Positions 1-40,699 are shown, counted from the first letter of the stretch. The stretch: 64,000 nt of DNA from Minutocellus sp. GHC0000111 (GCA_977018835.1 OZ361260.1:3286001-3350000); one strand, 5' to 3'. A program made the numbers and translations. The notes: a model not told the origin generated them from the sequence alone.

Positions 1-769
1 GAATAAGGTCCGCTATTACTTCTAAGTCGGTTTCTGTAAGTTTGTCCCCAGAATGGGCATCAGGATCATCATTATTGGTATCGTTAGTTGGGGCTACTAC
101 TAGTATAGAGCCCGCAGGAGACCTGCTTTCTACCCTGGACTTTTGGTTCTTCCTAGACAACTGATTTCTCAGTCGAGAAACGAGCATTTCAGCTGTAAAT
201 TCTCGGCCTGCAAAATATTCTTTATGGATTCTCTCCCAGAAACCTCGTCGGACCCTTGTTTTGCCACTTTCCTCAAGATCCTTCGCAACGAGTTCCTCTA
301 CGAGTCTATCGTCCTCCTCCGTGAAGATAGACCTGGCTTTATTGATGCCCGCCTTCTCCAAATTTGTATCAATAATCTTCACCAAGGCCTTCGCTGCACT
401 GTGTGAAAACTTGTAGTGCTTCGCCAACATATCTCCGGCCATCCTTTTGCGCGTCGGTGGCTCACCTGCTTCGTCATCGCTACTATCATATGCCTCAAGC
501 TACCGCTGGTACTCTTCATCAGCTCCCAAACCACATGCCTTGAGCTCGGCTCGAACAATGCCCTCCCACCCGTCGGGAAGCTCGGAGGTATCGATTTCGT
601 TGGGAATAACGAGAGCCGAAGATACGGGCACCGAGGACGGTCCAGCATCTTCTGCTGGTCGTGCCTTTTTACTTTTGCCACTTGCAGTCTCGCCGCCTTC
701 ACCCGCACCTTCACCCACGCCCGAGGGCAAAGATTCCCCTTCGGTGCTCTTGCGCTTCACGCTGACCAT
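1..769 (-). CDS. Myb/SANT-like domain protein (3' end outside window) with one in-frame TAG at 500-502
   Basis: ORF 500..769 continues in the same frame past TAG (CGG TAG CTT) with no further stop to position 2. My translation gives ...EEYQR*LEAYDSSDDEAG...RSIFTEEDDRLVEELVAKDLEESGKTRVRRGFWERIHKEYFAGREFTAEMLVSRLRNQL..., which resembles a Myb/SANT repeat (FTxEED..L...W..I...F.GR). Confidence 0.5.
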
Positions 770-19193: not shown

Positions 19194-19265
19194 CTTCGTG
19201 ATGGGAAAATGGATCTTCTGCACTTTTGCCCGACGACGGGAAGACCTACCTATCTTCTACTAGTA

Positions 19266-21913
19266 CACAGCCCCATCTCGTCTTGTTTCGCCGGTCGGAT
19301 GAAGCGTTTTTCGGCAGAAGACGAACACGTCACGAAGAAACCCACCAAAACCCAATCTTGTTCGTCACCCACTCTTTGACCGTCCAACACCATGGTGGTC
19401 CGTCGGCGTTGCGCCGGCGTATAACTATATTTTCGTACCAAATACGCATTCATTATCATGTTTGGATATAGTTGAAGCTTACTGTATCCTCAGATTGGCC
19501 TCCGCTGCGTATCAACGCCACGAACCATCGGCCTACTTTTCCTCCATCTGTCGGCCGTTCGTTCGTTTCTCTGGGGTGGCACCATTGCTCCGTCTTTGTG
19601 CTCGTCGTGCTCCCGTTGTGATGCCCCAGACCCTCTGGTACTTTCCCACGTTGTTGTTGATGATAAACTGCCGGGATTGCGCCGCACCCCCCGTGTGACC
19701 GACTCTCGCTGATGATCCCGACCGATCGCATCCCCACTCTCGACCTCCCGGAATTCCGATGTTGCGCCCGAGGAGAGACAGATAGCATTGGGATAAGTTT
19801 ATGCAACAATCAACCCGACAAAGGGACTTTTTGGTCTGGGAGATAAATGGGTGAGTTAAGAAGGACGTGATGTGTTTGTTTGGGTGTGCTATTTACTTTT
19901 TTGCTCAATCGCGACACTGTTTGTAAAAGTTGGATTGTGCAATTCATTTGTCATTGTGTAGCAGCAGTGCAGTTTCATTTTCTAATTTTACACATGCCCT
20001 GCTCCCATCTCTACATCCTCATCTCCATCGGTGGCCATCATGATCATTTGTTGGCGCTTGTCATCAGTTTCTGCTTTAACAGCTTCTTCGGTCCTTGTCC
20101 TTTTCCTTGTTCTTTTGCCACCCGAGAGTTTCGCTCCCGCCTCTCCTCGACCTTTGGATTGGATGCCCTCTCCTCAGCCTTGAACTGTGCCGTCTGTTGG
20201 GCCTCATGTCCCTTGACGCCCTGAGTCCGACGATCTTCCTTAACGCCCTCTTGGTGGGCTCGCTCTACAAACGATTCGTCGAGCCAATAGATGCCGCCCC
20301 ATCCATTCTTCACTAGCCAAATGTGTTGGTCCAAGATGTGATCTTCGAGTAAGTGCCACTTGGGCGTTGTGCTAATGCCGATTGCCCGTGCTTGCTTGAG
20401 GGCACTTGCAATCAATGCTTCAAGCTCTCTCACAGCCTTCTTTGCCTCATCATCCCATTTCATGCACCATTTCAGAAACCTGGAACATGTTGCGCGTCAA
20501 GAGTGTGGAGCAAATTAGAGCAAGCTTTGCAGAGCTCTTTGATGTCGTCATCCGTCATGCCATCTTCCTCGCGATTGTGCTCTAGGAGAGTTCCTTTGGT
20601 GGAGGTGTCATGGTGGATGAACTCTATTGTCCTTGGTTTCTTTTCTTGTTGTTGCCATCAGAAATGTTAATAGATAAAAAGCTCTCCAGCATTCTGCCAG
20701 CACTGCCCTTATTTTACCTGAGTCGGCCGCCTCAATGCCGGCCTTTTTCAGGAAATGGAAGTGAGGGGCATCGTCATCCTCGGCATCATCGACAGCTCCC
20801 ATCTCTGGCTCGCCATCACCGTGCTTCTGACGATTCTTCTCAAAGCACTGCTGCTGCATGTGTGCTTCATGTGTAGCGTCCTCTCTCTTGCAACATCAGC
20901 TTCGTCCTCATAACAGGGCACATAGTCCTCGTCTTCGTCGTCATCGTCCTCACTGATCTCGCCGGCCTCCGTCGTGGTCAGGGTGCCCACCGTCCCAACA
21001 TCGTCGTCATTGTCCCACCCATCGTCCTGCTGGCCATCATGCCCACCAGGGAACTTCTGGGCCTCGAGCAACATCTGCCTGTTGATTTCGTAGTCCATCG
21101 CCGCACATCCCACCGACACATGTGGTGCGACCGACTTGAGGAATGCATTACATGCCTTCGTCAAATTGAGCCGCGGCGGCGGTGTTTCGAGGCGAAATTG
21201 TTGCTCGACCGTGTGACCATGTCAAAAGCCATCCATCCATCCATCCATCATCATGTGGAGAGCGTCGGATGCACGAGGATTGACAGAACCGAGGCGAACA
21301 AACATGCTCTTTTTGTATGGGGTTCGCTGAACGTCGTCGGCAAGGCAGTGTCTTGATACCATTTCATCCCATCCATTCTGGTTGTCTGTCCTCACAAAAA
21401 ACACATCGCAGCAGTCTTCGTGTTGTTTCTTCTTCTTCAAACCCAAGATGCCCGCAGCGTGCATGACGGCGCCGTACATGATGGGACTGCATCCCAACAC
21501 ATTCATCAAGGAGTCGTTGCTGTTGCCGATGAAATTGTAGTAATGAAGTTCCTTTCTGCGAAGACGGACGAGTAGTTCAGCCAGGGCGTCCTGCACCACC
21601 GCAATTGTTGCTCTGTCTGCGGTGTGTTGACCGCGGGATTGCGGCCGTTATTTTTTTTGCTCATGGAGAATTATGGATCGAGACCAACGGGAATATCACC
21701 AGGATGTCGGGAGTACCTGGTTGGTCTCGTGCCGTAATTCTCCCACACCAGCGCGAGACATCACCTTCGTTCTGCACGTAGCGGCGGCAATTTGAATTTT
21801 TGCCGCCATGGTGGCTCGCGTTGGGCGCGCCGGTCGGTTGCTTCGCGCGCCGGCCGGCCACCGAAAGTGCGACCAAAAGTATGCGAGTCATCCGGCTGGC
21901 AGATGGTGCTGTG
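19266..21913 (-). mobile_element. CACAG-ended DNA transposon, RAG1/Transib/Chapaev-related, copy 1 (non-autonomous, 2648 bp)
   Basis: Termini CACAGCCCCATCT (19266) and AGATGGTGCTGTG (21913); 4-bp TSD AGTA at 19262-19265 and 21914-21917; near-identical inverted copy at 37927-40613. Confidence 0.92.
20044..21599 (-). pseudogene. Internally deleted DDE transposase of copy 1
   Basis: Fragmented ORFs 21222..21599, 20748..21164, 20608..20859 and 20044..20463. The last carries TPKWHLLEDH...GGIYWLDESFVERAHQ. Confidence 0.75.
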
Positions 21914-22017
21914 AGTACCTAGGCTAGGCCTAATCTTTTGCTTGCGTACAATTCGTCGACACCACAATCGCATGAGATAAAGTCTCAGCTTCAACTTGGG
22001 CTCAAATTTCTGCAACG

Positions 22018-28006: not shown

Positions 28007-30276
28007 CGAGGTCAGATTCGCGAGAAATCTCATGCTGAAATATTTAAGAAAATGGCTATTTTTACTCTAATTTTGATTTATCTTCATGTGAAACAATAAT
28101 TCGGATAAGACTTTAGATTTCAGCGGCTCTAATCAAATGGACGCGTTCGTGCGACGCGACGGTTCGGCCTCCATCTCGTCTTCATCTTGAACGATGGCAT
28201 GATACTCGCCTCGGATCGAAAGTACGATGCATTCGTCCCGGATCTCGCACCACAGCCAATCCGGGATGAGCTTGAGCTTCTTTAGCTCCCGCTTCACGCC
28301 GTTGAACTTGTAGATGAAGGTAACTGAGGAGTGGAACATCTCCGCGGCCTTGTCGTACACCGATTCAGTTATTGCCACGACATCATCCATGTCGAGGGGC
28401 ATGTTCTCGGCCCTTATCGCCCGGCAGACGAGTCGACTGACGACATTGAGGAGCATGTGCTTCTCAAAATCCTCGGGCCCGTCAATCTTGAGAGTTTTTT
28501 CCTGGTCAATGATGATGGCCAAGACAGCGGTGAGTATGTGTTCAATCCATTTGTGTCTCGGGCGGAAGTCGAAGCTGAGCATTTCGATGACGCGATCGGC
28601 ATACTTGGACTGGTATACTGCTTCCCAACGAGTGCCGATGATTCATCTGATTCGGCCGCCTTCCGTTCTGTCATCGACGATCTTGCAACGGCGACCCGGC
28701 GGTATGCTGCACCATGTCTCTTTGCAATTGCCAAGTGCAGGGAGCAGGCAAAGGTGGACTATTCGGTGCTGTCCAGCGCAGAGCATGGTGCACGATTTTT
28801 GGGATGGATGAAGGCGTATGGTGCTCTACCTGCATCCGAGAAGGCGATGTGGGAGATGAAGAGGAGATCTCATCTGGCTATGCAGCCATACATTCGAGAT
28901 GTTATTGTTGATGCTCTGATACGAAATCCTCGGGAATCTTGGCGGGAGCTGGAGGTTGATGTCAACTTTTGGTGTTCCTACTCGGCAATACGGCGGTGGA
29001 TAATGTCGCGGGAAGGGTTCCGGTACTATGCCGAAAGGATCATCCCTCTCCTTACTACCCATCAGATGGAGAAACATTTGGTATTTGCGCGGAAATTCCG
29101 AAACAATTGGGGGCTCGGCGGTGGCAAGTTTCTCCTTATTATGTTCGATGAGAAGTGGTTTTGGGGCTTGGTTCTTCGATCGTATGCCAAGCAAGTTGCA
29201 GAATTGGGTATTGATCCTCGGTCCTTCTCGGCATATCACCGAAATCACATCAACAAGTGCATGGTGGTGGCTGTCACTGCCTTGGCTTTTATTGACAGCA
29301 TTGAGAATGGCGGCATTGCGTTCAAGCTTGGACTTTTTCGGGCTCAGGCGCATAAAATTGCGAGGCAGATGGTAAGGGAGGCGGTGCGGCAGGCAGATGG
29401 TAGAATCAAATATTGCGGCCCGGTGGTTCGGAAGAAAGACGATCTATACCTTGTGGATTGCGCGGTGACTGGATGCAGCCATGGCACCCTTGATAATCCC
29501 AAGTTCCCACTGAAAGCTTTATTTGAGAACAAGATGTTTCCGGATGTTGAGGCTTTGGTCGGACCTGGTGGAAAGTTTGAAGGCTATGTCCCTATTTTTC
29601 AGGGCGGCAATGCTGGGCCCCATGCCGAGACTGAATTTGTGGAACATGTGGAAGGATACTGTCGGGACAAGGGATGGCGTTGGGAACCTCAGGCCCCGCA
29701 AATGCCCCATATGAATGTTCTTGATCTGTCTGTTTTCCCTTGCATGTCAAAGCGGCATACAATGTTGAGCCGCGATCGGGAGGGGCTGAAGGTTTTGACA
29801 GAAGATCAGACTTGGGATGCAGCGGAGGAAGTTTGGATGGGGCTGGAAAACTGGAAGATCGCATCGGCATACATCCAGGCTCATAGAATTGCAAAGAAGG
29901 TAATCGTTGCAAAAGGCAACAATGATTTTCTTGGAAACGGTGAAGGCATGCATGTTGGGGTGCGAAAGGATTTCAGGCCGACTGAAAATGGCATGGTTCG
30001 GATAGATGGGAAAATTATCGCTCCTCCTCCTGCTGATCCAACCATGGATAATTAGTCCTGCGGTGCTTTTAAGTTATGTTATGTTTAAAATAATACTAGA
30101 TTATTTAGATTCGAGCTATATTTGTGCTACTACACACACATGCCGTACATGCATGTGTAGTGCTCTCTTGTCAGTTTTGATGGTTCCGGCTTTACATGCA
30201 TGTGTCCGTGTCCGGGTTGCGGGCCCAAAAATCGACATTTTTTGGTCCGGGCCCTTTTCTCGCGAAACGGACTTCG
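28007..30276 (+). mobile_element. IS630-Tc1-mariner (plant/oomycete mariner-like) DNA transposon
   Basis: 21-bp TIRs CGAGGTCAGATTCGCGAGAAA (28007-28027) and TTTCTCGCGAAACGGACTTCG (30256-30276), 3 mismatches. Right flank is TA, left flank TG. Encloses a transposase ORF. Confidence 0.75.
28331..30055 (+). CDS. Mariner-type DDD transposase, second catalytic Asp replaced by Gly (true start uncertain)
   Basis: FDEKWF (D1), FQGGNAGPH (usually QxDNAxPH) and QAPQMPHMNVLDLSVF (D3, with 38 residues between positions 2 and 3). Confidence 0.85.
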   Translation: MEHLRGLVVHRFSYCHDIIHVEGHVLGPYRPADESTDDIEEHVLLKILGPVNLESFFLVNDDGQDSGEYVFNPFVSRAEVEAEHFDDAIGILGLVYCFPTSADDSSDSAAFRSVIDDLATATRRYAAPCLFAIAKCREQAKVDYSVLSSAEHGARFLGWMKAYGALPASEKAMWEMKRRSHLAMQPYIRDVIVDALIRNPRESWRELEVDVNFWCSYSAIRRWIMSREGFRYYAERIIPLLTTHQMEKHLVFARKFRNNWGLGGGKFLLIMFDEKWFWGLVLRSYAKQVAELGIDPRSFSAYHRNHINKCMVVAVTALAFIDSIENGGIAFKLGLFRAQAHKIARQMVREAVRQADGRIKYCGPVVRKKDDLYLVDCAVTGCSHGTLDNPKFPLKALFENKMFPDVEALVGPGGKFEGYVPIFQGGNAGPHAETEFVEHVEGYCRDKGWRWEPQAPQMPHMNVLDLSVFPCMSKRHTMLSRDREGLKVLTEDQTWDAAEEVWMGLENWKIASAYIQAHRIAKKVIVAKGNNDFLGNGEGMHVGVRKDFRPTENGMVRIDGKIIAPPPADPTMDN

Positions 30277-34799: not shown

Positions 34800-36293
34800 G
34801 AGTGATTTCACGAGAGAGCAGACACCCCCTCCGCGATGTTTCGTAAACATTGTACCAAAGTAATTTTATTGCTGATTACTGCTTAGAAGGATGTTGTAGA
34901 CCATAATCAACAATAAAATTACTTTGGTACAATGATCTTGGGTGTTAATTTAGCACATCTTATAGATACGGAAGAGAGTGTTTTGATTTGGTCTTAAATT
35001 ATTTTTTTGGGGATTGATATAGATGTGCTGCTTGAGAGAAAGAAAATTTTGTATCGAATTTCATTATAAAACGAAACCCATTTGCTCAAACAAGAGGTGC
35101 CACAAGATGTGTTGCCGATGTGCCTCCCATTGAAACTAAACAAGAATACGGTGCACCGTACCCTTGTAATAGCCTTCCACAACACTGTGATGCAGCAGGG
35201 GACTTGCGATTACCTTTTTGAGGCTTGAAAAAGTCGTTCGCGTTGTGTCCGATTTTTTCGACAGTTTCCGACGTTCCATCACGACCATGTTCGCCCGATG
35301 TGCAGCACCACCCCCGCCATCGCACACACTCTGGCCACCTCGATGCCTTCCTGAATATCACTGGAAGGGATTGCTGGGTGGTAGTGGGGCGTCAATGCGT
35401 GCCTGCTCCGCAAAATGTTGCCCAGGGACACTGCCACCCCCATCACACCACCCGCCCGAAGTTGGTTCGGATGCTATTTCGTGGTCCATGCATCACTTCC
35501 GTTTCACTGATCAGTCGCTGCTGCGCCCATGTGTATATACCACGAGCAGTTAAGTGGGGGGTGGTGGCTTCTCTTCACAATTCATCGAGAAAACTGTGCC
35601 CAACGTCCTGTTTCTGGTGTCAGCACCAGATTGCACCTTCATTGCTTCTGCCGCCCGAGAGGAAAGAAATCTGATAAAACGACCAAGCCAACACGTGGGA
35701 TCGATGGATACAACAATAAATTAGTATCCTGCGTGCTGGTGATGCGTGAAGAATCAGTGCTTGAGGCTCGAGGAGGGTTGTAGTTGGGGATTCGCTACTT
35801 TCGGAAGCTTTTTCTTTTCATAGTGACGGCCACGAAGATGCAAAGATGGGGTCCAATGCCGACCCTTTCGTGCCAAACCGCCCCCCACATGATCCGAGTG
35901 GAAGTCATGCTGGCCAGGGGGGGATTGAAAGGGCTGTAGAGAATCATGAGCTATTCTTCTTTGCCATTTTGAGGGGTAAAAATATTTGAAATTTCACGGG
36001 TGTGAGGAGATGTTGCTAAAATAGCACATGATGTACGAATGGATGTTCTTTCAAGTATTCAACACTCACCTAATGTATGTAGTTGGTGTATGCATATATT
36101 GGCTTGGGGCCAATCATTGTTATGCCAACATTAGATGGCCTTCTTGTTGAGATGAATTCTCCCTTGCTTTCGTCGCGTTGAGTGAGGCCATTTAGTGGGT
36201 TCATTTTTTACACTGGATAAAACATCGTATAAAAAGTTTTTCTAGTGGCTACATGTTTACGTCAATTTTGTCGGCGGTCTCGTGAAATCACTC
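34800..36293. mobile_element. Non-autonomous DNA transposon with GAG termini and 4-bp TSD (Sola-like), 1494 bp
   Basis: Perfect 16-bp TIR GAGTGATTTCACGAGA (34800-34815; 36278-36293), extendable to 25 bp with 3 mismatches; TAGA duplicated at 34796-34799 and 36294-36297; no intact ORF. Confidence 0.8.
34848..34934. repeat. 31-bp-arm inverted repeat (hairpin), 25-nt loop
   Basis: CATTGTACCAAAGTAATTTTATTGCTGATTA (34848-34878) pairs with TAATCAACAATAAAATTACTTTGGTACAATG (34904-34934), 1 mismatch. Confidence 0.9.
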
Positions 36294-37832: not shown

Positions 37833-38586
37833 CTCATGTGCTGAAATGAGGTTGGCAGTGAGGTTCGACGGAGTTCGACTGCGAGCGAGCCGAGGCTCGT
37901 TGCGGCGATTTTTTTAGGCGAGGGCCCACAGCACCATCTGCCAGCCGGATGACTCGCATACTTTTGGTCGCACTTTCGGTGGCCGGCCGGCGCGCGAAGC
38001 AACCGACCGGCGCGCCCAACGCGAGCCACCATGTTCAAATTGCCGCCGCTACGTGCAGAACGAAGGCGATATCTCGCGCTGGTGTGGGAGAATTACGGCA
38101 CGAGACCAACCAGGTACTCCCGACATCCTGGTGATATTCCCGTTGGTCTCGATCCATAATTCTCCATGAGCAAAAAAAATAACGGCCGCAATCCCGCGGT
38201 CAACACCGCAGACAGAACAGAGTTGCGGTGCAGGACGCCCTCCTGGCTGAACTGCTCGTCCGTCTTCGCAGAAAGGAACTTCATTACTACAATTTCATCG
38301 GCAACAACAACGACTCCTTGATGAATGTGTTGGGATGCAGTCCCATCATGTACGGCGCCGTCATGTGCACTGCGGGCATCTTGGGTTTTTGAAGAAGAAG
38401 AAGAAACACGAAGACTCTGCTACGATGTGTTTTTTGTGAGAGGACAGACAACCAGAATTGATGGGATGAAATGGTATCAAGACACTGCCTTGCCGATGAC
38501 GTTCAGCGAACCCCATACAAAAAGAGCATGTTTGTTCGCCTCGGTTCTGTCAATCCTCGTGCAGCCGACGCTCTCCATGATGATGG

Positions 38587-39772
38587 ATGGATGGCTTTCG
38601 ACATGGTCACACGGTCGAGCAACAATTTCGCCTCGAAATGCCGCCGCCGCGGCTCAATTTGACGAAGGCATGTAATGCATTCCTCAAGTCGGTCGCACCA
38701 CATGTGTCGGTGGGATGTGCGGCGATGGACTACGAAATCAACAGGCAGATGTTGCTCGAGGCCCAGAAGTTCCCTGGTGGGCACAATGGCCAGGACGATG
38801 GGTGGGACAATGACGACGATGTTGGGACGGTGGGCACCCTGACCACGACGGAGGCCGGCGAGATCAGTGAGGACGATGACGACGAAGACGAGGACCATGT
38901 GCCCTGTTATGAGGACGAAGCTGATGTTGCAAGAGAGGACGCTACACATGAAGCATGCATGCAGCAGCAGTGCTTTGAGAAGAATCGTCAGAAGCACGGT
39001 GATGGCGAGCCAGAGATGGGAGCTGTCGATGATGCCGAGGATGACGATGCCCCTCACTTCCATTTCCTGAAAAAGGCCGGCATTGAGGCGGCCGACTCAG
39101 GTACAATAAGGGCAGTGCTGGCAGAATGCTGGAGAGCTTTTTATCTATTAACATTTCTGATGGCAACAACAAGAGAAGAAACCAAGGACAATAGAGTTCA
39201 TCCACCATGACACCTCCACCAAAGGAACTCTCCTAGAGCACCACAATCGCGAGGAAGATGGCATGACGGATGACGACATCAAAGAGCTCTGCAAAGCTTG
39301 CTCTAATTTGCTCCACACTCTTGACGCAATGTGTTCAAGGTTTCTGAAATGGTGCATGAAATGGGATGATGAGGCAAAGAAGGCTGTGAGAGAGCTTGAA
39401 GCATTGATTGCAAGTGCCCTCAAGCAAGCACGGGCAATCGGTGTTAGCATGACGCCCAAGTGGCACATAATCGAAGATCACATCTTGGACCAACACATTT
39501 GGCTAGTGAAGAATGGATGGGGCGGCATCTGTTGGCTCGACGAATCGTTTGCAGAGCGAGCCCACCAAGAGGGCGTTAAGGAAGATCGTCGGACTCAGGG
39601 CGTCAAGGGACATGAGGCCCAACAGACGGCGCAGTTCAAGGCTGAGGAGAGGGCATCCAATCCAAAGGTCGAGGAGAGGCGGGAGCGAAACTCTCGGGTG
39701 GCAAAAGAACAAGGAAAAGGACAAGGACCGAAGCTGTTAAAGCAGAAACTGATGACAGGCGCCAACAAATGA
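38587..39772 (+). pseudogene. Internally deleted transposase of copy 2 with predicted 73-nt intron 39101-39173
   Basis: GCC GAC TCA G|GTACAAT...CAACAAG|AG AAG AAA CCA joins ORF 38587 in frame with ORF 39263..39772 (TPKWHIIEDH...LDESFAERAHQ). Further frameshifted coding sequence lies upstream. Confidence 0.7.
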
Positions 39773-40470
39773 TCATGATGGCCACCGATGGAGATGAGGA
39801 TGTAGAGATGGGAGCAGGGCATGTGTAAAATTAGAAAATAAAATTACACTGCTGCTACACAACAGCAAATGAATTGCATGATCCAACTTTTACAAACAGT
39901 GTCGCGATTGAGCAAAAAAGCAAACAGTGCACCCAAACAAACAAACACATCACGTCCTTCTTAACTCACCCATTTGTCTCCCCCAGACCAAAAAGTCCCT
40001 TTGTCGGGTGATTGTTGCACAAACTTATCCCAACACTGTCTGTCTCTCCTCGGGCGCAAAACCATTGTCGGAGTTCCGGGAGGTCGAGTGGGGATGCGAT
40101 CGGTCGGGATCAGCGAGAGTCGGCCATGCGGGGGGTGCGGCGCAATCCCGGCAGTTTATCATCAACAACAACGTGGGAAAGTACCAGAGGGTCTGGGGCA
40201 TCACAACGGGAGCACGACGAGCACAAAGACGGAGCAATGGTGCCACCCCAGAGAAAAAAACGAACGGCCGACAGATGGAGGAAAAGCAGGCCGATGGTTC
40301 GTGGCGTTGACACGCAGCGGAGGCCAATCTGAGGACATGCAGCAAGCTTCAACTACATCCAAACATGATAATGAATGCGTATTTGGTACGAAAATATAGT
40401 TACACGCCGGCGCAACGCCGACGGACCACCATGGTGTTGGACGGTCAAAGAATGGGTGACGAACGAGATT

Positions 40471-40580
40471 GGGTTTTGGTGGGTTTCTTCGTGACGTGTT
40501 CGTCTTCTGCCGAAAAACGCTTCATGGGTTTTGGTGGGTTTCTTCGTGACGTGTTCGTCTTCTGCCGAAAAACGCTTCAT
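40471..40580. repeat. Perfect 55-bp tandem duplication, subterminal in copy 2 only
   Basis: GGGTTTTGGTGGGTTTCTTCGTGACGTGTTCGTCTTCTGCCGAAAAACGCTTCAT at 40471-40525 and 40526-40580; single in copy 1. Confidence 0.95.
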
Positions 40581-40699
40581 CCGACCGGCGAAACAAGACG
40601 AGATGGGGCTGTGGGCCACCTGGCCACCTCCATTGTTGAACCGAAGCGATTGAAAGCATCACATCATGCTGTGCAGTCAACCATGGCCGCCCGCAAATC

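What the first reader, a model, noticed from the sequence alone, without database searches (positions are those of the whole stretch)
37927..40613. Diatom DNA transposon with RSS-like 12/23 asymmetric ends
Seen: both copies have the same two ends. End A is CACAGCA-ccatctgccagc (12 bp)-CGGATGACT. End B is CACAGCC-ccatctcgtcttgtttcgccggt (23 bp)-CGGATGAAG. A CACAG heptamer-like terminus and an identical internal CGGATGA block are therefore separated by exactly 12 and 23 bp. Known: V(D)J recombination signals are CACAGTG + 12/23 spacer + ACAAAAACC; RAG1 derives from Transib-like transposases; CAC termini with 4-bp TSDs typify Chapaev, whereas Transib/RAG make 5-bp TSDs. Inference: this family may use a one-helical-turn asymmetry rule analogous to 12/23 but with a different internal motif. 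Caveat: the shared block can be extended leftwards with mismatches (GCCRGYCGGATGA), so the robust quantity is the 11-bp offset; the numbers 12 and 23 depend on taking a 7-bp terminus and the perfectly shared block.
Basis: partly seen in the sequence, partly recalled or inferred. Interest (0 to 1): 0.92.

Follow-up and report, generated by a model that had tools for sequence, protein, structure and literature searches.

The report
RAG1-like transposons with one-turn asymmetric ends
This likely diatom cut-and-paste transposon belongs to a large group whose predicted enzyme folds like the antibody-gene recombinase RAG1, and across very distant families a sequence block shared by the two ends sits one DNA turn (10-11 bases) further in at the downstream end, which likely reflects an end-pairing rule like the 12/23 rule of V(D)J recombination in a lineage where it had not been found in our literature searches.

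Summary
Confirmed and extended. The window holds two internally deleted copies (37927-40613; 19266-21913) of a CAC...GTG transposon with 4-bp target duplications. Each end has a 13-bp terminal repeat and a shared inner block, 11 bp further in at the 3' end. The full 1097-aa transposase has CMCT/Chapaev-type motifs; its predicted fold matches RAG1 (Z 21-22) and, in 4 of 35 RAG/Transib rows, also RAG1's nonamer-binding domain. Of 80 related metagenome loci, 21 gave end pairs by a rule blind to the inner block. In 8 other lineages (under 35% protein identity) the offset is +10/+11 in six and +21/+22 in two, always long at the 3' end (shuffled null: mean 0.55, none of 5000 reaches six). The block is family-specific; CGGATGA is not conserved. 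No RAG2-like gene, no A-rich nonamer, no Chapa zinc finger. 12/23-type asymmetry is published for Transib and RAG-like elements, not found in print for Chapaev-like ones. Whether transposition needs a short-plus-long pair is untested.

The parts
37927..40613 (+). Copy 2 of the transposon, non-autonomous deletion derivative, 2687 bp
37923..37926 (+). Left 4-bp target duplication GGCC of copy 2
40614..40617 (+). Right 4-bp target duplication GGCC of copy 2
37927..37939 (+). 5' (short) end: 13-bp terminal repeat starting CAC
37940..37952 (+). 5' end: inner block (element bases 14-26; CGGATGA at bases 20-26), likely second transposase site
   Evidence: binding inferred
40601..40613 (-). 3' (long) end: 13-bp terminal repeat starting CAC
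40590..40600 (-). 3' end: the extra 11 bp (one helical turn) between terminal repeat and inner block
40577..40589 (-). 3' end: inner block (element bases 25-37 from the end; CGGATGA at 31-37)
38228..39235 (+). Frameshifted remnant of transposase residues 1-328 (numbering of full-length P0014)
   Evidence: tblastn
39230..39825 (+). Frameshifted remnant of transposase residues 900-1097 (H(4)H motif and catalytic E); residues about 329-899 (NBD-like region, both catalytic D, C(2)C) are deleted at about 39230-39235
40470..40579 (+). 55-bp tandem duplication present in copy 2 only, just inside the 3' inner block
19266..21913 (-). Copy 1 of the transposon, 2648 bp, same deletion, 4-bp duplication (AGTA on + at 19262-19265 and 21914-21917)
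21888..21913 (-). Copy 1 5' (short) end
19266..19302 (+). Copy 1 3' (long) end
19991..21596 (-). Copy 1 transposase remnant (residues 1-328 and about 901-1097, frameshifted)

Best explanation
This is a deleted copy of a cut-and-paste transposon whose whole lineage keeps a family-specific inner block one helical turn further from the 3' end than from the 5' end, and the transposase likely reads that block with a hinged domain predicted to resemble RAG1's nonamer-binding domain, so that a short end would pair best with a long end, as in the 12/23 rule. Shown: the ends, the 3-4-bp duplications, the conserved offset and polarity, the DDE/C(2)C/LH/H(4)H motifs. Predicted: RAG1-like fold with a three-helix NBD-like segment (residues about 332-402) in front of the DDBD-like helices. 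Inferred: a single-gene transposase dimer, without RAG2, grips bases 1-12 at each active site, while one NBD-like dimer tilts to hold both inner blocks on the same DNA face; this would favour 5'+3' pairs over 5'+5' or 3'+3' pairs, a useful safeguard in a high-copy family. The window copies lack residues about 329-899 and would be moved in trans by full-length copies such as P0014.
For: 21 of 80 related loci gave a CAC..GTG pair by a rule using only the first 12 bp and the duplication (shuffled flanks: mean 2.0 loci); 18 of the 21 have +10 or +11 among their best offsets (14 alone, 4 in ties). Clustered at 35% identity they form 8 lineages besides the window's; lineage-best offsets are 11, 11, 10, 22, 11, 10, 21, 11, window 11; shuffled null mean 0.55, maximum 5 of 8 in 5000. 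In 7 of 8 test windows all 8 lineages have a best offset of 10, 11, 21 or 22 (some in ties); real DNA 60-150 bp further inside never gave 7 or 8 lineages in 3000 draws. The two ends of one element match at that offset (8-12 of 16 in 8 of 9 representatives) better than ends of different lineages (mean 5.6, maximum 9), so the block changed in concert at both ends. Identity peaks at 5' bases 18-28, highest at 24-25, where the nonamer lies in a 12-RSS (RSS layout from PMC1131882). In the best-sampled clade 11 of 11 distinct 5' ends and 11 of 12 distinct 3' ends hold the core motif at fixed places 10 bp apart while the spacer drifts. 10 and 11 swap at least 3 times on a quick tree with no in-between value. 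Short end 5', long end 3' is the polarity given for Transib. Model pLDDT 78.6; Foldseek RAG1 E 1e-12; Z 21.2 RAG1, 19.9 BbRAG1L, 13.8 HzTransib against 48,161 chains; model 332-1055 aligns with RAG1 391-1008 in 4wwx_B, and into the NBD in 3 more chains. ProtoRAG prefers its asymmetric pair in assays (PMC8289069).
Against: No biochemical data. 59 of 80 loci gave no pair (35 too short on one side, 24 with room), so the sample is what assembles with both ends. Per locus the signal is weak in the CACATTCGTTT clade: with the fixed window L025, L028, L055, L057 peak at other offsets, and L010 ties; L054 was a false pair. With a wide window (13-45) two lineages lose the signal. The test window and the set 10/11/20/21/22 were chosen after seeing the ends. 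Lineages share ancestry, so they are not independent trials. The relaxed second pass gave 6 of 16 pairs at 10/11, most others spurious. Only 4 of 35 RAG/Transib rows extend into the NBD, and pLDDT there is 51-85. No GRP[RK] hook in 63 full-length proteins and no A-rich nonamer. Mouse RAG1 without RAG2 is reported to lose the 12/23 preference (PMC8355894), and invertebrate RAGL is argued to be fairly insensitive to asymmetry (PMC7204232).
Confidence: 0.62

Rival explanations
1. The inner block is a real transposase site that only has to lie on the same helical face as the cut; each end works alone and there is no pairing rule. The short-5'/long-3' layout is an inherited default.
For: Offsets of 21-22 in L034 and L017 show that whole turns can be added; RAG1 alone shows no 12/23 preference (PMC8355894); symmetric Transibs exist.
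Against: No lineage of 9 has a best offset of 0 or a reversed polarity, although protein identity has fallen to 20-34% and the block itself has been rewritten at both ends.
Confidence: 0.22
2. The asymmetry serves something other than synapsis, for example the extra turn at the 3' end is a site for a host bending factor or another transposase domain, or the 5' block doubles as promoter or autoregulatory site.
For: The transposase has about 330 N-terminal residues of unknown role and a long coiled coil; 3' spacers are partly conserved within clades.
Against: A promoter role would not keep the same block at the 3' end at a fixed phase; the block sits where the nonamer sits in RSS and an NBD-like segment is in the matching place in the model.
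Confidence: 0.12
3. Neutral relic or chance: one old insertion at the 3' end, carried along without selection.
For: For the window element alone the shared block has p of about 0.014; all lineages share an ancestor.
Against: The block differs between lineages yet matches between the two ends of each element, and spacer length stays within 10-11 or 21-22 while spacer sequence is unrelated; nulls.
Confidence: 0.04

Closest known systems
V(D)J recombination signals and RAG1 (12/23 rule, nonamer-binding domain)
   Same: CAC terminus; second conserved block at bases about 20-28 or 31-39; one-turn difference with 1-bp slack; RAG1 core fold; NBD-like segment in the predicted model.
   Different: No RAG2; block is family-specific and not A-rich; 12-13-bp terminal repeat instead of a heptamer; no GRPR hook; 3-4-bp duplications; long coiled-coil insertion; rule not shown biochemically.
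Transib with asymmetric ends (Transib5, Transib2_AG, N1-N3_AG, PMC1131882; subgroup I Transib, PMC9435367)
   Same: Single transposase gene, CAC ends, short end 5' and long end 3'.
   Different: Transib has a CACAATG heptamer, an A-rich nonamer, usually 5-bp duplications and an about 700-aa enzyme; here 3-4-bp duplications, 1020-1165-aa enzyme with GxDHG/GDL/YHGG motifs, no CCGHC tail; asymmetry seen in every lineage resolved, whereas most Transib families are symmetric.
Chapaev (CMC/CMCT clade; PMC4079192, PMC4411706, PMC12730594)
   Same: CAC...GTG termini, 3-4-bp duplications, C(2)C, LH and H(4)H motifs; DUF1280 hits in 4 of 48 relatives (the link of DUF1280 to Chapaev is recalled, from no call).
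   Different: No sign of the N-terminal Chapa zinc finger; asymmetric ends not reported for Chapaev in the papers found; no tree with reference Chapaev proteins was possible.
RAG-like transposons: AanRAGL of Aureococcus (4/13 spacers), PflRAGL-A (10-bp asymmetry), ProtoRAG (27/31)
   Same: Bipartite asymmetric ends; AanRAGL is also from a stramenopile and also has a 13-bp terminal element.
   Different: They carry RAG2L and make 5-bp duplications; this lineage has neither; no CCGHC tail.

Membership tests
CMCT clade of DDE transposons | D, D, E with C(2)C and H(3-4)H between second D and E | tested here: met
   D516, D615, C632/C635, H978/H983, E1004 conserved in alignments; definition from PMC12730594
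CMCT clade of DDE transposons | CA..TG termini and 2-5-bp target duplication | tested here: met
Chapaev | Invariant CAC and GTG termini | tested here: met
   Both window copies, borders also marked by loose contig ends; CAC was part of the search rule for the related loci
Chapaev | 3-4-bp target duplication | tested here: met
   4 bp in both window copies and in 2 of 21 loci, 3 bp in 9 of 21, 5 bp in none, none seen in 10 of 21
Chapaev | C(2)C, LH, H(4)H motifs | tested here: met
   definition PMC4079192
Chapaev | N-terminal Chapa zinc-finger domain | tested here: not met
   No CxxC in the first 330 residues of 62 of 63 full-length proteins; a crude test, but a two-zinc domain needs such ligands
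Chapaev | Clusters with reference Chapaev transposases in a tree | not testable with these tools
   No reference Chapaev, Transib or RAG1 sequence was delivered by any tool
Transib | 5-bp target duplication | tested here: not met
   the trait is labile in some Transibs
Transib | CACAATG-like heptamer plus A-rich nonamer | tested here: not met
   Ungapped end profiles of 18 elements keep only CAC and a weak GTTTC at bases 8-12
Transib | RAG1-like catalytic fold | tested here: met
   Predicted model
RAG-like (RAGL) transposons | RAG2-like kelch gene inside the element | tested here: not met
   No second ORF over 268 aa apart from transposase fragments in 21 delimited elements; the 187-195-aa convergent ORFs have no Pfam hit at E under 0.2
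RAG-like (RAGL) transposons | [quoted passage not shown] | tested here: not met
   0 of 63 full-length proteins for either
RAG1 / 12-23 system | Three-helix nonamer-binding domain in front of the DDBD | tested here: inconclusive
   4 of 35 RAG/Transib rows align model 332-402 to the NBD; helical pattern conserved in the family; pLDDT 51-85
RAG1 / 12-23 system | Ends differ by one helical turn between terminal and inner block | tested here: met
RAG1 / 12-23 system | Efficient cleavage only of a short plus long pair | not testable with these tools
   Needs an assay

The most novel reading that the evidence does not exclude
The 12/23 geometry is ancestral to the whole RAG1/Transib/Chapaev-like radiation: a hinged NBD-type dimer that measures a one-turn difference between the two ends existed before RAG2, the heptamer and the A-rich nonamer, and it survives, strictly enforced, in a large undescribed algal lineage of single-gene transposons whose inner site is rewritten family by family. 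These intact one-protein systems would be the simplest test bed for how the 12/23 rule arose.
Probability: 0.42. Interest if true: 0.9.

Novelty: new variant of a known kind. Interest (0 to 1): 0.78.

Why it matters
Where the 12/23 rule came from is an open question: it has been credited to RAG2, to a Transib 'seed' or to RAGL-A elements. A 2021 review calls some Transibs the only known transposons with 12/23 asymmetry (PMC8355894). Finding the same one-turn offset, the same polarity and a block at the nonamer's position in every resolved lineage of a distant, RAG2-free group with about 10% structural-alignment identity to RAG1 would push the geometry deeper in the tree or show that it arose twice on the same fold. 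Many members have intact single ORFs and complete ends, so the question becomes directly testable with one protein, and family-specific sites suggest orthogonal directional transposases.

Tried and rejected
No host genome is held, so copies could not be collected genome-wide. Pfam finds no family for the remnants or for P0014; sequence searches of the PDB gave only coiled-coil matches and a weak RAG1L hit at E 0.055. Word-based homolog searches found only close kin. Single-sequence folding failed (pLDDT 36). Five viral-contig scans or attempts found no relative (answered with none; 58 and 72 had no usable pattern); the prokaryote genome collection was not scanned (no usable pattern), so bacterial relatives are untested. 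A two-copy complex prediction of residues 326-402 gave no answer. The careful tree did not finish; the quick tree is used. Rejected: RAG2-bearing element; CGGATGA as a clade-wide motif; a second copy of the block at offset 0 or at reversed polarity (sums at background); the pairs called for L054, L040 and the rule-2 5' end of L063. Variation at the ends among the many copies of the window's own family is known only from the partial tables. Two look-ups in earlier scan findings returned nothing.

Full report
The observation. The window holds two copies of one element, 37927-40613 (+) and 19266-21913 (-), differing by 70 substitutions over 2606 aligned columns. Each is flanked by a 4-bp duplication, GGCC and TACT. 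For this element alone the block is modest evidence: 68 of 5000 shuffles reach 11 of 13 at some offset. The terminal 107 and 89 bp carry none of the 70 substitutions (p about 0.005).

The family. Contigs of 4 public runs laid on copy 1 have loose ends exactly at 19266 (2 runs) and 21913 (1 run), a head-to-tail joint with 4 letters between (1 run), and a joint that skips the whole element (2 runs), so an empty allele exists. Summed depth inside the element is about a thousand times that of the flanks in two runs; the tool warns that this is no copy number. Both copies lack transposase residues about 329-899. Of 27 stored proteins that carry the junction motif, 17 show this same deletion, 4 the full sequence, 1 is cut short and 5 are distant relatives, so a deletion derivative dominates. 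The full protein is P0014, 1097 aa. Neighbouring genes (DUF1997, DUF3593, DUF2499, HtrA-type protease, RAP, HSF) fit an alga; the only named relatives, 3 of 20 clusters looked up, are Thalassiosira proteins. Diatom is likely, not shown.

The enzyme. HMMER found 623 relatives at E up to 0.001, most of the 150 listed at 24-33% identity. Conserved are D516 (GxDHG), D615 (GDL), C632/C635, L703-H704, YHGG, H978/H983 and E1004: the C(2)C, LH and H(4)H motifs given for Chapaev (PMC4079192, passages) and the CMCT clade (PMC12730594, passages). The Atlas ranks unnamed cnidarian clusters and DUF1280 first, RAG1 next. A model built on 119 sequences has mean pLDDT 78.6. It matches RAG1 by Foldseek (E 1e-12; HzTransib 1e-5) and against 48,161 chains (RAG1 Z 21.2, rmsd 4.3, 474 aligned; BbRAG1L 19.9; HzTransib 13.8; P element 10.9; then coiled coils). 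No Chapaev structure appears in these lists, so the ranking cannot place the protein between Chapaev and Transib. In 4 of 35 RAG/Transib rows the alignment runs on into the nonamer-binding domain (4wwx_B: model 332-1055 to RAG1 391-1008, Z 21.3, rmsd 6.2, 538 aligned); the other rows start at the DDBD. The segment's helical pattern is kept across 63 full-length proteins, which have no GRP[RK], no CCGHC tail and, in 62, no CxxC in the first 330 residues, so no Chapa finger.

The decisive test. One metagenome scan matched 597 stretches, confirmed 100 and kept 80 loci at 21-34% identity. Ends were called by a rule blind to everything past base 12: CAC..GTG, at least 11 of 12 matches or 10 with a duplication. 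21 of 80 loci gave a pair; shuffled flanks give 2.0 on average. Duplications were 3 bp in 9, 4 bp in 2, 5 bp in none and absent in 10. The best 11-mer shared by the two ends lay at +10 or +11 in 18 of 21 (4 of these ties), at +21 in L034, and elsewhere in L010 and L054; L054's pair proved false. At 35% identity over 200 residues the loci form 8 lineages besides the window's. With a fixed window (5' bases 14-29; L031 left out as a duplicate of L030, L054 kept in) the lineage-best offsets are 11, 11, 10, 22, 11, 10, 21, 11 and the window's 11; shuffles give a mean of 0.55 lineages at 10/11 and never 6 in 5000. The result holds in 7 of 8 windows and fades for two lineages in the widest; real DNA further inside gives at most 6 lineages at whole turns (3 of 3000). 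The window and the whole-turn set were chosen after seeing the data, lineages are related, and several single loci of the CACATTCGTTT clade peak elsewhere; pooled, that clade holds its core motif at fixed places 10 bp apart in 11 of 11 and 11 of 12 distinct ends. Of the 59 loci without a pair, 24 had room for both ends. A relaxed pass over these and L054 gave 16 pairs, 6 at 10/11, including L016 (13 of 16 at +11) and L019 (+10); L040's pair at +7 is false because its true 3' end is that of L042, and L063's true 5' end is cut by the contig start and gives 14 of 16 at +10. The block differs among lineages but matches within an element, with identity peaking at 5' bases 18-28. On a quick, unfinished tree 10 and 11 interchange at least 3 times. 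No element carries a RAG2-sized second gene.

Mechanism. The simplest reading is that of RAG, where the NBD dimer pivots on a linker to take up the one-turn difference and enforces the rule (PMC10629977, passages). Here a single-gene transposase would hold bases 1-12 at each active site and read the inner blocks with an NBD-like dimer, the block and its reader changing together from family to family; a short end would then pair best with a long end. Binding, dimer and pairing preference are inferred. Against a strict rule: RAG1 alone is said to show no 12/23 preference (PMC8355894, passages) and invertebrate RAGL may be insensitive to asymmetry (PMC7204232, passages); for it, ProtoRAG works better with its asymmetric pair (PMC8289069, passages).

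What is known. 12/23-like ends, short at 5' and long at 3', are published for five Transib families (PMC1131882, passages); asymmetric ends for subgroup I Transib and for AanRAGL of a stramenopile (PMC9435367, whole main text; its supplement text had no hit for Chapaev, diatom or Thalassiosira) and for PflRAGL-A. Chapaev is placed beside Transib and RAG1 (PMC4411706, passages; bioRxiv 2026.01.24.700457, passages; PMC3014272, passages). Duplication length can vary inside Transib (bioRxiv 2026.08.26.747230, abstract and one section), so it does not settle the placement. bioRxiv 2021.09.26.461848 (passages) adds nothing on ends. Nine searches found no paper on asymmetric Chapaev ends or on diatom Chapaev-like elements; 'Chapaev + recombination signal + asymmetr' gave 0 papers. 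Not seen: the Repbase Reports of 2007-2008, Repbase entries, Yuan and Wessler 2011, bioRxiv supplements and figure images, any of which may bear on novelty.

Verdict. A real feature, stronger than first reported: a Chapaev-like CMCT lineage without the Chapa domain, not filed as Chapaev, Transib or RAGL, that works like the RSS system in end geometry. New variant of a known kind; interest 0.78.

Noticed in passing
L003 4265-4825 (-), L005 3353-3937 (-), L006 4158-4730 (-): A conserved 187-195-aa second ORF, convergent with the transposase, inside the 3' end of one lineage (32-41% identity among the three; also matched in L002, L004, L009, L011, L018, L059, L060, L070, L072). No Pfam family; low-confidence helical-repeat look-alikes, not kelch.
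   Followed up: partly
L034 3641-4207 (-): An unrelated 189-aa convergent ORF in the lineage with the 21-bp offset; also in L033 and L026.
   Followed up: partly
window 19257-19265 and 21914-21976; 37914-37926: Both copies sit just upstream of host genes: copy 1 between divergent DUF1997 and DUF3593 genes, copy 2 next to the 5' side of a VTT-domain gene.
   Followed up: no
window 28328-30055 (+): 575-aa open frame with a Tc3-type transposase helix-turn-helix hit below Pfam's cut-off (E 9e-6): probably another DNA transposon.
   Followed up: no
window 19266-21913 and 37927-40613: 61 of 70 substitutions between the copies are transitions, 30 in CG/TG/CA context; CpG is depleted in parts of the interior (0.33-0.51) but not in the terminal 150 bp (1.3-1.5), as methylation-driven decay sparing the ends would give.
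   Followed up: partly
L017 4135: The 5' end of a related element, inverted, lies about 300 bp beyond the 3' end of the L017 element.
   Followed up: no
P0014 residues 733-850: A long antiparallel coiled coil is inserted between the LH and YHGG motifs, where RAG1 has its RAG2-binding region by recall.
   Followed up: no
window 34848-34934: A 31-bp near-perfect inverted repeat with 25 bp between the arms.
   Followed up: no
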